Source of the DNA: Eledone cirrhosa
Taxonomy: Eukaryota
DNA length: 64,000 bases
NCBI GenBank assembly: GCA_964016885.1
Contig: OZ024742.1
Coordinates: forward strand, 328,352,001 to 328,416,000
Direction: 5' to 3'
The position numbers and the translations under genes were made by a program. This document shows positions 33,097 through 46,903 of this stretch, piece after piece. Each line of letters opens with the position of its first letter. Positions within the stretch are counted from its first letter, which is position 1. The notes below the pieces were generated by a model. The model saw only the letters and a program-made list of their open reading frames with translations. It was not told where the DNA came from and did no database searches.

Positions 33097-33303
33097 TGAG
33101 AAAAACCACAGACCCTCCATCTCAACTCTACTTTTGAAAAGCAGAAGAACTGCGAAACCGGTAAAGGAACGAAATAAATATATATATTTTTTTTTTAATA
33201 AGAATCCAGTTGCATTTTCGATTTCATCTTTTTTCTTTATACTTTCACTCGTGTAGGACACCTCGGTTATTTTTCATTTTGTAAAAAAACCTCACTTTCT
33301 AAT
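33097..33303 (+). mobile_element. ~200 bp non-coding HHR (U3-A8) element, HHR at 33131-33166
   Basis: CTT-TTGAAAA-GCAG-AAGAA-CTGC-GAAA-CCGG-TA-AAG. TA-repeat flanks. Same ends as the other copies. Confidence 0.82.
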
Positions 33304-33317
33304 ATATATATATATAT

Positions 33318-33953
33318 ATGAGAAACGTAAAATAAGAAAATTATAAAATTAACTTACTTACTAAAATATCACTTCCAACTAATTAGTTTCTGGAATGGAG
33401 TAAATATATTTTCCGAAGAAGATACAGAAAAAAAGCATTCCGTCGTCAGGGAAGTCTATTTTCATCCAAGTTACCAGGCATAGCGAGGACTCTGGAAACT
33501 TATTAAAAAATAATTCAGTGGATAGGAAATAGCAAAGCGTGGACTGAATTCCTAGCCATTGAGAAAATCACTGCCTCTACGTCTGTGGCGAATTCAAAAA
33601 GAATCAATCACGTGACATCGAGGTCAATCAGTGGAAAGTGGTTTGCTAATAAGACGGCGGCCTGCCTACTACCATAGCAGCAGTCACGGCCAATATTGCT
33701 CGACAAATAATTTGGAGATATTAATAAAGAATTTATATCTAGTAACATATATATACATACAGATGCATATCAATGCTAGCAGATATATAGTAAGTAAGTT
33801 AATTTTATAATTTTCTTATTTTACGTTTCTCATATTATTGTTCTGCAACCCCATGCATTGAACCACAATGTTACTAAGACAAAACCTATATATCTGCTAG
33901 CATTGATATGCATCTGTATGTATATATATGTTACTAGATATAAATTCTTTATT
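33318..33953. mobile_element. TA-flanked non-coding element with two interleaved inversions and a hammerhead
   Basis: 33318-33363 is inverted at 33788-33833; 33722-33790 is inverted at 33887-33953. Confidence 0.75.
33371..33455 (-). ncRNA. Hammerhead ribozyme
   Basis: Reverse complement ACTTCC-CTGACGA-C-GGAATG...CATTCC-A-GAAA-CTAATTAG-TT-GGAAGT. Confidence 0.85.
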
Positions 33954-36814
33954 ATATATATATATATATATATATATATATATATATATATATATATATA
34001 TATATATACGTATGTATGTACGTATGTATGTATGTACGTATGGGAGAATGTATGTGTGTATGCATGTCTTCATTAATTTATAAATACACACAAAAAATGC
34101 ACACATTTACGTAAAAACTTACATGTTTATATGTGTGCGTGAGTAGTAGTAGTAGTAGTAGTAGTAGTAGTAGTAGTAGTTGTTGTTGTTGTTGTTGTTA
34201 TTCACTCCCCAACCAAGTGCATTTTTGAGGTTTCCTGAGATGTTTGCAAGTATCAACTGCTTGGCTAGTGACAATATGTATATGTGTGTGTGTTTGTGTG
34301 CGTGTGTGTCCATGTTTTACATCTAATCTGTCTCTCAAAATCTCCCCAGTAGCTGAGTATCACTTTCCCTAGAGCACCAAATATGATGAAGCAAACGCTT
34401 TCTGGGTTCATATACAGCTGAGACCAGACGCGTCACAGAGGCTCAGGGAATCTTTCTGTATACAAGGAACGAGCCACGTCCACTTCCACTGCAGCACTTA
34501 CCCATATATGCTCCAAATATGCCCCAGATGTACCCCAGAGTTGGGCGTAGTTTCTGGTGACAGATTGATTTGATCAGGCAACCCCGCACTCACAGCCAAA
34601 TATCCTCGACACAAAACTAAAATCGTGTTCTTCTTCGAAAGTTAAACAAAAAGAACAAGTGTGTTGTCTCCAGCATATATATATGTACTATATATGAGGT
34701 GTGTCCGTTACATCTGATATGTGTACGTGTTACTTCTATTGTGTATGTATGTATTACATTTAGCGTGTGAATGTTAAATGTATTGTCCATATGCCTTATG
34801 TTTAATACGTGTGTCTGTTATATCTAAAGTATATGTGATTTTTCATGTGTGTTTTGCATCTACTGTGGATGTGTGTTACATTTAAATTGCAATTTGTGAA
34901 TTTTATTTTATTTTTTCTTTGGTTGATATAGTGTTGATCATGTTCGTTTTGGAAACTTATATTCTGTTATATTGGAAAGGTATTATATGGACTATATGCT
35001 GCGTTGTGTATTTTTTGTTGTTGTTTAGATGCAGGTCAGCTCTGATCAAGCCAATCTGTAATAAAGCGTTTTTCTGTCTATAGTTATTTATAATTATCTC
35101 GTATTTTTATGACTGACAGCATTGTCCAATCTGTCTTTCTGTTTTTTAAACGGTGTGATGTAATTCGAGGGGGTATGGTTCCTGTTTTTAGTAGCTCGAG
35201 AAACCATGTAGGGGCTGGTCTCATACCATGAGGTGAGTATTGTGTATACATTTTATTGTTTAAGTATCATATGGGGTGAGTGAATGAGTGACAAATAAAA
35301 TTAAATTATCACATGATCCACATGACGGGTGCAATGTGTCCGAACACGGAAGAGCCGAACGCCCACTATCATCGCCTTCACCTCTCTCGTCCTCTGAGTT
35401 AGTGAATTGTGCAATGTGCGTTCTGTAACGTAGAATATGTTAGCTTAATAAGGCTGTGTTTAAAGTGATTACAAAGGTGTAAGTCATAGTATGGTAAATA
35501 CGCTTTGTTGAAATTGTCATTTTCATAAACAATACACCAATTACACCAGATATATATATACATATATCTATTCCTTTATTTAATTTTCAGATGTTTAGAA
35601 TTTCAAAATACCATTGATTTTTAACTATCACTTACACTTTTGAACCTATTAATATATTAATTTGTTCGTATTTTCTATTTTTCTTACTTTCTTTTAACAT
35701 GTTTCCATTAACTGATAACATATATTAAAAGCTTTTTAATGTATATTTTGTGAACTTAAATAACATATAATATCAGCGTCAAATAGTATAATTTATGTCT
35801 GTTTTTGTCAGGCTTTTTAAATATAAATCTTAAATAGGTTTTACAATTTTAATAATGGCTTTTGTATCATTTGTTCATCTAAATGTTGCTTTATTTTGGC
35901 ATATATGTATTACTAAAAAGTAAAGCTAATACGTAGCAAGTTTTGTTAATAGAGTTTATAATGCTTATTGTAGGGTGAACTAGAAGAACAAATCAAATGT
36001 CACGTGTGTTTCGCAGCATTGTAACAATGGATCTCTGATAAAAAAGAAAGTTTAGCTTTTGCAATCCTTATTGCATGGCCTGAACCTGCGGAGTTTATCA
36101 ATGACTACTGCTTCTTCTCAGGCAATATTCAAGACTTCAATACCGAGAAGAAAAAAATGGTTCAATATTCAAATTTTCATTCAGCAATGTTTGCCATACG
36201 AAGGCACGTATCTTAATATTTAATGTGCTGTACTCACGATCATAAGGTCGTGTGTTGGATTCTCGGGCCTGGCTGGGCATTGTGTTCTTGAACAAGACAC
36301 TCGTTTCCAATCAGCTAGAAAAGAATAATTTGCGATGACACAGTTCCCAACTGTATCGATATTTGCCTTTCACTTGTTGTAGAGACGTACATGGGAAGGC
36401 GACTGCACCTTGTTCAGGCGCATGCCTCGGTGAGGCACACCCATGGTCAGTCACTGATGTGTACAAAACACAAGGCTAGTCATGACGGAAGGGACATTTT
36501 CCTTTCATTTTCAATCAGAAATGTAATCTATGATCCAGCCGAGTCTGATCCATACAAATCTGACAGCCTCAATCATTATAATTCACAATCATATCTAAAT
36601 TCTGATGATGCCGATTACCGAGATCTTTCCCAATAGATTTTAACGAAACAAATTTGTCACTTATTTTTACAACTTTTGATTCCTAGATTGCAAGAGAACA
36701 ATTTATTGATTTTGAGCCATCCGCTGGAGATTTTGCCATGATTGGGGTGCAAACCAGTTACCGATCAAATGATCGGATTCTACCAAGACTCAACGTAAAG
36801 TATGGTGAGATAAT

Positions 36815-44989: not shown

Positions 44990-46100
44990 CTTCTTCTTCT
45001 TCTTCTTCTTCTTCTTCTTCTTCTTCTTCTTCTTCTTCTTCTTCTTCTTCTTCTTCTTCTTCATGAGAGGGTTGTGAGAGGAGAGTCCTCAAACACTCCT
45101 TCCAGCTGGTACTTTCAGAAGCGACCCTCTCAAACTGATCCTGCTGGATCCCCAAGCGAGACTAGCCAAGTTCATAGAATTTATCCAACTTGCTCAAGAT
45201 CTACTCCTGGATCTAATGCCGGTTGGTTTTGCCCGTAAAATCTGCCCAGCGATTCTTTCCTGACACATTCTATTCGTATTTCCATGGTATCGGATCAGTG
45301 ATCTCTCGATTCGTAGGAGTAGTGACTCTACCTGCAGTGACGCTCTGACCTCCAAGCTACGCACTTTATTGGGTAACATTTCTACGACGAATCTTCGGAG
45401 GAACCTTATTCCGGCAGCTTGTATTTGGGATCGTATTCCTCTGTCAATACCTAAGATTGATCACCATAGTTAAGGGTCGGCACAAATACCGAATTGAAGA
45501 CAGTGAGTGTAGCTTTTAAACCTACCCCCACCTTTTCTGAATACCGAATGCTGAGGCTGGTGCGTTACTACACCAGCTCCTGTAATTTTGCATCTAATTC
45601 AGTCTCCTGTGTTCAATCACTCGTGAATACGGCCCCAAGTTCCTTGAACTTCTCCACCTGATTCAAGTAGGGTGCACTAAGGAGACTTCCTTGTGAGGAT
45701 AAGTGTCATAGTATTTACAGCACTGGTTTTCCTTCCAGCCAGTCATGCAGCACTCAGCATCAAACCTATCAAGTACAGTCGGAAATCACCTTATGTCGAG
45801 TTAAGTAACATCATTCGTCTGCAAATACATATGCTTGTCGTGATAACACTGACAACCTGGTTGCACATGTCAATCCTGTTCATGAGAGGTGACAGTACGA
45901 ACCATTGGTGGAGTCCGATTCCCACATTGAATGGTTTCGATTTAACACCATTTCTCCGACAACAAATACTTGGGTATTCTTATAAAGACACCAAGGTTCA
46001 AAAATCGATCGCATACTCGTCTCCAAATTGCAGCTGACTGATTTTACACATGCCTTTCGTGATATCACTGCCAACTTGGCTGCGTATGCCAACCTACCAC
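44990..46100 (-). mobile_element. Decayed RTE LINE 3' half with (GAA)n tail
   Basis: NGVKSKPFNVGIGL, VFADE, LLLRIERSLIRYHG..RM, followed by a (GAA)n tract at 44990-45062. Confidence 0.8.
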
Positions 46101-46693
46101 AGCATATCTCGAGGGAAGCGGTCACATAGGTGAAAATTGTGGGTGATATAGTACCAGAAGCTGTCATTCCTTGTAACTGCATATATAAGAAGTTGGATGC
46201 GAGTTAATTTGATTAAAGTAATCAAATAATTGTTTCTACTTTAGGTACAAGGCCAGCAATTATCCAGTACAATACTGGTACTTAATGTTATCGACCCCGT
46301 AAGGATGCAAGGCAAAGAATGAAATATTAACGGTCCAAGACGTATAAGTCATGCATACGATGAAACACATTCATTTTGAGGTTCTCTATTTGCTTGTTAC
46401 TCGGCTCTTTCATCTCCGCATCCTATCCACCACATTCCGGTTAGCTGTTCTAGCTGTCATTGCCTTGCACACCTCTCATTTCCACAAACTTCCCGTTCGT
46501 TACTTTCCTCACTTATCCTGTTACACCACCAAGGTCGATTGCTACTCTGCGCAGCGTGCTGCTCCGAGTAAATTAGGATATTGGTTATGTATATAAATAT
46601 ATATATATATATATATATATATATATATATATATATATATATATATATATATATATATATATATATGATATATATATATATGATATCAGATGT

Positions 46694-46903
46694 GAAAAAA
46701 ACCACAGACCCTCCATCTCAACTCACCTTTTGAAAAGCAGAAGAACTGCGAAACCGGTAAAGGAACCAAATAAATATATATATTAAAAAAAAAAATAAGA
46801 CTCCAGTTGCATTTTCGATTTCATCTCTTTTTCTTTATACTTTCACTCGTGTAGGACACCTCGGTTATTTTTTCATTTTGTAAAAAAAACCTCACTTTCT
46901 AAT
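46694..46903 (+). mobile_element. ~200 bp non-coding HHR (U3-A8) element, HHR at 46726-46763
   Basis: CCTT-TTGAAAA-GCAG-AAGAA-CTGC-GAAA-CCGG-TA-AAGG. (TA)n flanks. Confidence 0.85.

What the first reader, a model, noticed from the sequence alone, without database searches (positions are those of the whole stretch)
33097..46903. ~200 bp multi-copy element with an ultra-minimal U3-A8 hammerhead; same covariation in an unrelated family
Seen: copies at 1322, 5207, 33097 and 46694 share the 5' start, and three share the 3' end. Three read TTGAAAA where CTGANGA is expected, and the unrelated 591-nt family reads TTGATAA. Known: positions 3 and 8 form a Watson-Crick pair in the active hammerhead, and U3-A8 can replace C3-G8. 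Inference: two independent compensatory swaps imply selection for catalysis, and standard CUGANGA searches would miss them.
Basis: partly seen in the sequence, partly recalled or inferred. Interest (0 to 1): 0.7.

Follow-up and report, generated by a model that had tools for sequence, protein, structure and literature searches.

The report
Penelope terminal repeat with U3-A8 hammerhead
This ~210-base repeat is the end piece of a Penelope-type jumping gene with over 11,000 copies in an animal genome, and it carries a predicted self-cutting RNA whose swapped U-A core pair is real but already published for such elements, so it is a new example of a known thing.

Summary
The copies and the TTGAAAA/TTGATAA cores are real. 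The "~200 bp element" is the terminal repeat (pLTR plus tail) of a ~5.2-kb Penelope-like retrotransposon: other loci join it to an RT + GIY-YIG frame, one with the ribozyme at both ends. U3-A8 is the family norm: 11,046 of 11,174 exact core matches, no C3-G8. A sister family keeps the core while stems I and II change in pairs, which supports a conserved hammerhead fold. The 591-nt family is a young tandem retrozyme-like repeat, also U3-A8. Natural U3-A8 hammerheads are in print (Perreault 2011; about 1,300 in Schistosoma Penelope elements, Cervera 2014), and this scan noted them before on other DNA. Independent origin of the two swaps is not shown. Cutting is untested, and copies do not pile up at the predicted cut site (1 of 100; about 6 of 100 junctions, no more than neighbouring positions). 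One extra: 50 of 100 copies start within 14 bases, about 42 bases before the core. This is likely the transcription start, reached by reverse transcription of uncut RNA. New member of a known kind; low interest.

The parts
46687..46902 (+). Solo pLTR + tail copy of the Penelope-like element (family A, 4-bp stem I variant), between (TA)n tracts
   Evidence: matches both repeats of the full-length unit L041 (97% and 90%)
46726..46763 (+). Predicted minimal type I hammerhead: stem I 46726-29/46760-63; core U3..A9 46730-36; stem II 46737-49; GAAA 46750-53; palindromic stem III 46753-58; A17 at 46759; predicted cut 46759|46760
33096..33302 (+). Solo pLTR + tail copy (family A, 3-bp stem I variant); core at 33134, H17 at 33163
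1320..1504 (-). Minus-strand pLTR + tail copy; U3 at 1471; 3-nt deletion in stem II/loop II
1505..1534 (+). Short inverted (head-to-head) stub of the same repeat
5201..5331 (+). Copy of older subfamily B ending at the short 3' site; decayed core (C3-A8 and G12A); its subfamily is U3-A8
5389..5445 (-). Partial inverted copy beside the 5207 copy
26805..26985 (+). Decayed copy of sister family C (U3-A8, compensatory stems I and II, A13C lesion)
52325..53867 (.). 591-nt retrozyme-like family: inverted arm (about 52325-52932, -) plus 1.56 tandem units (52946-53867, +), bounded by (TA)n
53114..53201 (+). Predicted type I hammerhead of the 591-nt unit: 5-bp stem I, U3-A8 core at 53119, bulged stem II with long hairpin loop, 10-nt palindromic stem III, C17 at 53196
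53705..53792 (+). Second tandem copy of the 591-nt hammerhead (core at 53710)
52559..52646 (-). Inverted copy of the 591-nt hammerhead (U3 at 52641)

Best explanation
The ~210-bp repeat is the terminal repeat (pLTR plus tail) of an RT + GIY-YIG Penelope-like retrotransposon that inserts into (TA)n, and it carries a minimal type I hammerhead motif with a family-wide U3-A8 pair that is predicted to cut weakly, only as a dimer or with protein help. Shown: linkage to the RT/EN frame, the direct pLTR-ORF-pLTR unit, two fixed 3' ends, head-to-head arms of unequal length, the U3-A8 consensus, and paired stem changes in a sister family. Inferred: the element's RT starts at either of two internal sites (about q148 and q211; q1 = window 46692) on its own RNA. 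A start in the downstream repeat gives long, variably 5'-truncated copies. A start in the 5' leader likely runs off the RNA's 5' end at q-4..q0 and gives the short copies seen in this window. Most templates were uncut (or re-joined) at the hammerhead next to the start. Inferred role of the ribozyme: occasional release or circularisation of units from tandem read-through RNA, not an obligatory step of each insertion. The 591-nt family is likely a non-autonomous retrozyme moved by a Penelope-type enzyme.
For: L033: 770-aa open frame with RVT_1 (E 5e-7) and GIY-YIG (E 7.6e-5), both above the Pfam cut-off, followed about 1 kb later by the repeat. Motifs DKG, GLPK, GTAMG, RYLDD and a CX4CX2C linker are present. 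L041: repeat at 2578-2788, first ATG at 2816, broken RT/EN frame, second direct repeat at 7759-7980, inverted partial repeat upstream. In 100 consecutive copies on contig C1, 3' ends were 59 long, 36 short and 5 other. 17 of 18 head-to-head pairs have one short and one long arm, the layout described in PMC8557442 Fig. 2 and PMC11167929. Positions 3/8 among 11,174 exact core matches: U-A 11,046, C-A 43, U-G 16, C-G 0, other 69 (letters counted by eye from the lists). Family C: 24 of 24 read TTGAAAA with positions 3, 7 and 8 left free; stem I C-G to U-A and stem II G-C to U-A; 27/30 identity over the ribozyme against 29/45 and 79/159 in the flanks for one A-C pair. Monomer hammerhead fold +0.7 kcal/mol against -6.4 for the best fold; double hammerhead -18.9 against -20.3. 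5' ends within q-6..q7: 50 of 100 in family A and 12 of 24 at the matching place in family C. Both stem I variants occur in short copies (31 and 11) and in long copies (14 and 16).
Against: No cleavage assay and no RNA data. No genomic trace of cutting: 1 of 100 5' ends near q69, and about 6 of the first 100 of 196 inverted junctions at q69 against 9 at q66, 9 at q63 and 8 at q55 (tallied by eye). Stems are very weak in large subfamilies. The commoner A variant has a 3-bp stem I. Subfamily B has G10.1-U11.1 and a 3-bp stem II. C has an all A-U 3-bp stem I. Their double-hammerhead folds lie 6.8, 10.2 and 11.2 kcal/mol above the best dimer fold. The covariation rests on two pairs in one family split; the pair-level control is not significant (230 of 500 shuffles), and family C was fetched with a pattern that fixes most of the motif. 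The transcription start is inferred from DNA ends only. Neptune versus Nematis was not resolved.
Confidence: 0.85

Rival explanations
1. One reading: a stand-alone ~200-bp non-autonomous retroposon (own short master, SINE-like) whose U3-A8 hammerhead arose independently of the 591-nt family's and is selected for catalysis.
For: Half of the copies are of the short form with shared ends. The 591-nt unit does not align to the PLE unit or its 5' leader (151 of 500 shuffles score as high). Stem I variants are skewed between short (31:11) and long (14:16) copies.
Against: The same sequence is the repeat of a coding element. Both variants occur in both size classes, and family C shows the same 5' boundary, which fits a shared mechanism better than one short master. 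No C3-G8 relative roots a swap.
Confidence: 0.08
2. The motif is hammerhead-derived but no longer catalytic in these families. It persists as a promoter, protein-binding or RNA-dimerisation signal of the pLTR.
For: No excess of copies at the cut site. Subfamily B amplified widely (2404 first-look candidates) with a G-U closing pair and a 3-bp stem II. In PMC11167929 hammerhead mutants did not affect insertion in vitro, and no RNA-seq reads ended at the cut site.
Against: All catalytic core letters are kept between families A and C while the flanks fall to 50-64% identity and two stem pairs change together. The anole PLE hammerhead cuts once the protein is added (PMC11167929). U3-A8 hammerheads are reported active in vitro (as stated in PMC3088659).
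Confidence: 0.25
3. The short copies are solo pLTRs left by recombination or deletion of longer insertions, as proposed for rotifer Penelope elements, not direct products of reverse transcription to the RNA 5' end.
For: PMC3846280 describes 193-218-bp pLTRs with optional tails and ascribes some solo pLTRs to recombination or deletion.
Against: In L041 the repeated region extends about 540 nt upstream of the hot spot, so recombination would not cut at q-4..q0. Short copies sit directly between (TA)n tracts or head-to-head with a partner that has the other 3' end.
Confidence: 0.12

Closest known systems
Minimal hammerheads in pLTRs of metazoan Penelope-like elements, including the U3-A8 variant of Schistosoma mansoni Cercyon (Cervera and De la Pena 2014, PMC4209133; parts 1-2 of 4 read, supplements not read)
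   Same: Type I motif in both repeats of an RT+EN element; short stem I; palindromic stem III predicted to work as a dimer; most copies dispersed singly or in opposite-strand pairs; U3-A8 found (about 1,300 hits in S. mansoni).
   Different: Stem II is 4 bp here (7-8 bp with an extra 5' base in Cercyon); stem III keeps a 6-nt palindrome, nearer their Drosophila/shrimp/mosquito type; H17 is A; over 11,000 near-identical copies of one family.
Natural U3-A8 hammerheads (Perreault et al. 2011, PMC3088659; passages read)
   Same: States that C3 and G8 covary to U3 and A8 in several natural hammerheads and that such ribozymes had been shown active in vitro (citing Przybilski and Hammann 2007, which I could not read).
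   Different: Rare exceptions there; here the fixed state of at least two abundant repeat families.
Poseidon element PAc of Anolis (Frangieh et al. 2024, PMC11167929; parts 1-2 of 4 read)
   Same: Two internal RT start sites give the optional tail; AT-rich target; hammerhead near the pLTR-ORF junction; unprocessed RNA is the main template.
   Different: PAc has C3-G8 and its ORF starts inside the ribozyme. Here the first ATG lies about 170 nt after the cut site, the tail is about 63 nt, and a cysteine linker points to Neptune or Nematis, not Poseidon.
Neptune/Nematis PLE clades (Craig et al. 2021, PMC8557442; passages read)
   Same: C-terminal GIY-YIG, CX2-5CxxC linker, (TA)n targets, partial tandems with an inverted upstream copy and a one-sided tail.
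   Different: Clade not placed by a tree here.
Animal non-LTR retrozymes (Cervera and de la Pena 2020, PMC7229834, part 1 of 6 read; Li et al. 2026, bioRxiv 10.64898/2026.07.22.740005, part 1 of 5 read), for the 591-nt family
   Same: Non-coding head-to-tail units, each with one type I hammerhead; proposed derivation from PLE pLTRs.
   Different: Unit of 591 nt against about 170-400 nt; U3-A8 core; long loop II; circular RNA not shown.

Membership tests
Penelope-like element (EN+) | Single ORF with PLE-type RT and C-terminal GIY-YIG | tested here: met
   L033 770-aa frame, RVT_1 and GIY-YIG above cut-off; DKG, GLPK, GTAMG, RYLDD. The N-terminal third was seen only in a broken copy (L041).
Penelope-like element (EN+) | Direct pLTRs flanking the ORF, often with an inverted upstream partial copy | tested here: met
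   L041: repeats at 2578 and 7759, inverted copy at 2013-1673
Penelope-like element (EN+) | Optional 3' tail, usually on one arm only | tested here: met
   59 long and 36 short ends of 100; 17 of 18 pairs unequal
Penelope-like element (EN+) | RT groups with PLE clades in a phylogeny | not tested
   No reference PLE proteins were fetched; the PDB search gave 0 hits
Penelope-like element (EN+) | Retained spliceosomal intron in the pLTR (some PLEs) | not testable with these tools
   No RNA run listed
Neptune/Nematis clades | CX2-5CxxC linker between RT and EN; (TA)n targeting | tested here: met
   C-X4-C-X2-C at residue 640; (TA)n at 3' ends. This does not separate Neptune from Nematis.
Type I hammerhead ribozyme | Core U4 G5 A6 N7 A9, G12 A13 A14, A15.1-U16.1, H17 | tested here: met
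Type I hammerhead ribozyme | Watson-Crick pair between positions 3 and 8 | tested here: met
   U3-A8 in 11,046 of 11,174; first 100 listed of 636 in the 591-nt family. The canonical C3-G8 identity is not met.
Type I hammerhead ribozyme | Stems I-III can form | tested here: inconclusive
   Stem II 4 bp and palindromic stem III met; stem I only 3-4 bp; monomer fold unfavourable; dimer near the minimum only for the 46694 variant; two compensatory pairs between families A and C
Type I hammerhead ribozyme | Match to an Rfam hammerhead model | tested here: not met
   No hammerhead family down to E 10 for either unit; a C3-G8 hammerhead elsewhere in the window did score below gathering
Type I hammerhead ribozyme | Site-specific self-cleavage after H17 | not testable with these tools
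   Needs a bench assay; the genomic proxy (5' ends at the cut site) showed no excess
Non-LTR retrozyme (591-nt family) | Tandem non-coding units, each with a type I hammerhead | tested here: met
   Arrays of near-identical 591-nt units at many loci; longest ATG frame 75 codons
Non-LTR retrozyme (591-nt family) | Monomeric linear and circular RNA | not testable with these tools
   No RNA data were searched for this family
Non-LTR retrozyme (the ~210-bp repeat) | Head-to-tail tandem non-coding units | tested here: not met
   Copies are single, head-to-head or linked to the RT frame

The most novel reading that the evidence does not exclude
The hammerhead lies 42-72 nt after the likely transcription start and about 170 nt before the first ATG, so a cut would remove the cap from the element's mRNA. 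Because it needs a second copy through its palindromic stem III, transcripts of the thousands of solo pLTRs could act in trans as partners, making the weak U3-A8 ribozyme a copy-number sensor that shuts down its own transposon. The short copies would be 'strong-stop'-like cDNAs that build up the sensor. A milder form, that the short copies are run-off cDNAs marking the transcription start of uncut RNA, I put at about 0.55 (interest about 0.4).
Probability: 0.07. Interest if true: 0.7.

Novelty: new member of a known kind. Interest (0 to 1): 0.2.

Why it matters
Modest. It confirms that CUGANGA descriptors and Rfam miss whole high-copy hammerhead families, a point already made in 2014. It supplies a young, 11,000-copy Penelope family whose copies record both RT start sites and a sharp 5' boundary. 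That makes two open points testable: where Penelope transcripts start, and whether the hammerhead cuts the RNA that gets copied. The genomic record here says that templates were mostly uncut at the nearby ribozyme, which agrees with the in vitro result for the anole element.

Tried and rejected
The repeat finder on the whole window was swamped by microsatellites; a masked self-BLAST replaced it. Rfam gave only microsatellite look-alikes and sub-threshold HH9 hits for another family, and nothing for the two U3-A8 units. Search for C3-G8 relatives with the same stem III: 0 (control 15,156). 'Fossil cut marks' at the cleavage site, a lead from note e1-8643110: no excess. C3-A8 as a subfamily consensus was rejected: 37 of 38 aligned rows around the 5207 type are U3-A8, and the exception is the window copy itself (2 rows are family A and 2 are duplicates). 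Homology of the 591-nt unit to the PLE: none. The equal 80-nt distance from cut site to short end in family A and the 591-nt unit is not kept in family C, so I treat it as chance. Sequencing runs: no RNA holder listed. Contigs of four runs laid on L041:2430-2900 listed no other letter at positions 3 or 8 and no GT-AG joint; contig depth was not used as evidence. PDB search of the RT/EN frame: 0 hits. Not held and not read: Lunse et al. 2017 on small PLE hammerhead dimers, Przybilski and Hammann 2007, and Nelson and Uhlenbeck 2008 (titles seen in reference lists only), so kinetic values for U3-A8 are not cited. Paper searches; none showed a description of this family or of run-off short copies. 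The library lacks most subscription papers, and no supplements were read; those of PMC4209133 and PMC8557442 may list this family or its relatives.
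Full report
1. Observation. The four copies exist. Those at 46687-46902 and 33096-33302 are on the plus strand and 92% alike. The copy 'at 1322' is on the minus strand and starts near 1504. The 5207 copy stops early and has a partial inverted copy beside it. Each of the three long copies reads stem I, TTGAAAA, a GC-closed stem II, GAAA, CCGGTA, stem I: a type I hammerhead with a palindromic stem III and A at position 17. The 5242 copy has C3-A8 and has also lost G12. The 591-nt family at 52325-53867 has three TTGATAA hammerheads with a 5-bp stem I, a long loop II and a 10-nt palindromic stem III. 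A descriptor requiring a paired 3/8 hits both real units and 0 of 3000 shuffles of each (written after seeing the motifs). Rfam finds neither.

2. What the repeat is. The genome is 3.0 Gb; earlier notes of this scan call such genomes octopus-like, which I did not test. An exact 32-letter core pattern matches 11,174 times, with 0 for the reversed control. Among the 30 best loci, about a third run on upstream into shared sequence. In L033 that sequence is the 1-kb stretch behind a 770-aa open frame with RT and GIY-YIG domains and a C-X4-C-X2-C linker. L041 shows the whole unit: inverted partial repeat, repeat, first ATG 239 nt after q1, broken RT/EN frame, second direct repeat 5,181 nt after the first. 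This is the pLTR-ORF-pLTR layout of Penelope-like elements. The linker and the (TA)n targets fit Neptune or Nematis (PMC8557442, passages). No tree was made.

3. Ends of copies. I took the first 100 of 10,771 matches to an anchor downstream of the ribozyme (all on the first 39 Mb of contig C1) and extended each. 3' ends: 59 at the long site, 36 at the short site, 5 other. 17 of 18 head-to-head pairs within 4.5 kb have one of each. This is the optional tail that PMC11167929 traced to two internal RT start sites (parts 1-2 read). 5' ends: 50 within q-6..q7, 35 longer, 15 shorter. About 2 would be expected in that zone at the density seen downstream. Family C shows the same boundary in 12 of 24 copies. 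In Drosophila Penelope the transcription start lies inside the pLTR (PMC2377424, abstract and two sections). I infer that the short copies are made when RT starts in the 5' leader and runs off the RNA start. Rotifer pLTRs of 193-218 bp and solo pLTRs are already described, there ascribed to recombination or deletion (PMC3846280, passages).

4. Positions 3 and 8. Of 11,174 exact matches, 89 have a letter other than T at 3 (43 C, 23 A, 23 G), all with A8. 39 have a letter other than A at 8 (16 G, 13 C, 10 T), all with T3. That leaves 11,046 U3-A8 and no C3-G8. In the 591-nt family the first 100 listed of 636 matches all read TTGATAA. These counts give the master sequences; rare departures are later mutations in dead copies and say nothing on selection.

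5. Evidence for a conserved fold. The decayed copy at 26805 led to family C (24 exact matches), whose linked RT/EN pieces are 44-59% identical to family A. All 24 keep TTGAAAA with positions 3, 7 and 8 left free. One stem I pair goes C-G to U-A and one stem II pair G-C to U-A. Identity between one A and one C copy is 27/30 over the ribozyme, 29/45 upstream and 79/159 downstream. This is two pairs in one split; the cell-level control is 9 of 500 shuffles and the pair-level control 230 of 500.

6. Evidence against a strong or obligatory ribozyme. The monomer fold is unfavourable in every variant (+0.7 to +9.5 kcal/mol). The double hammerhead is within 1.4 kcal/mol of the best dimer fold only for the 46694 variant, and 6.8-11.2 above it for the others. 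Subfamily B spread with a G-U closing pair and a 3-bp stem II. Copies do not pile up at the predicted cut: 1 of 100, and about 6 of the first 100 of 196 inverted junctions at q69 against 9, 9 and 8 at q66, q63 and q55 (by eye). So the RNA that was copied was mostly uncut, or re-joined, at the ribozyme next to the RT start. PMC11167929 found the same in vitro for the anole element, whose ribozyme cut only with protein. PMC4209133 found low activity even for dimers.

7. Independence of the two swaps. The 591-nt unit does not align to the element and behaves as a young tandem repeat with two fixed 3' ends (about 331 and 496) and inverted arms, that is, like a non-LTR retrozyme. Such elements are proposed to derive from pLTRs (bioRxiv 2026.07.22.740005, part 1 read). 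U3-A8 predates the A/C split, and no C3-G8 relative with this stem III was found. Inheritance from an old U3-A8 lineage is therefore as possible as two swaps. Both changes also run from C/G to T/A in an AT-rich genome (inference).

8. Known or new. Perreault et al. 2011 report natural U3-A8 covariation and cite earlier in vitro activity (PMC3088659, passages). Cervera and De la Pena 2014 report it in Schistosoma Penelope elements, about 1,300 hits, noting that their first descriptor missed it (PMC4209133). This scan noted U3-A8 hammerheads before on other DNA of this and other genomes. The finding is a new member of a known kind. What it adds is a full-length parent, a genome-wide 3/8 table, paired stem changes in a sister family, a sharp 5' boundary that likely marks the transcription start, and a negative test for cut-site copies. 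Interest 0.2.

Noticed in passing
window 5501-6833: 367-nt tandem/inverted family with a canonical C3-G8 hammerhead (cores 6505+, 6130-, 5763-); Rfam HH9 hits below gathering; retrozyme-like
   Followed up: no
window 406-4049 and 11279-12110: Fragments of another Penelope-like family with a GIY-YIG-like frame (2595-3506, E 2.6e-4, below the Pfam cut-off), a 919-nt inverted repeat and hammerhead-like CTGAAGA cores at 651- and 1856-; a related core at 11008-
   Followed up: partly
window 15277-17460 (-) and 7457-8737 (+): 727-aa frame and a broken relative that look like PLE RT/EN by eye (Hydra-like, my recollection of motifs); no Pfam hit at E 0.01 for the two frames scanned
   Followed up: partly
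window 29711 (+), 18646 (-), 54628 (-), 439 (+)/1208 (-): Further hammerhead-like cores: two CTGATGA with A-U stems, and CTGAAAA...GAAACCG motifs of unknown status
   Followed up: no
window 37970-38617 (-): Exon of a sulfotransferase (Pfam Sulfotransfer_1, E 1e-27); the repeat copies lie outside this exon
   Followed up: partly
window 22633-25393 (+): Decayed LINE-type endonuclease/RT frames (by eye)
   Followed up: no
window about 46850-46860; L194 tail: A small GTGT/ACAC hairpin in the tail is kept between families A and C with a different loop; a candidate RT recognition site
   Followed up: no
window 46757-46762 and about 46830-46854: A possible splice donor overlaps stem III/H17 and a pyrimidine tract with AG lies in the tail; the acceptor is not kept in family C; no RNA data
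   Followed up: no
window 27318-27504, 36810-36979, 42719-42903, 46223-46317, 62568-62995: Another dispersed ~185-bp repeat family with six or more copies in the window
   Followed up: no
L157 (G000:C7:64038877 and 64039371), L158, L159, L162: Rare core mutations are shared by both arms of head-to-head pairs, so both arms were likely copied from one template or homogenised later
   Followed up: partly
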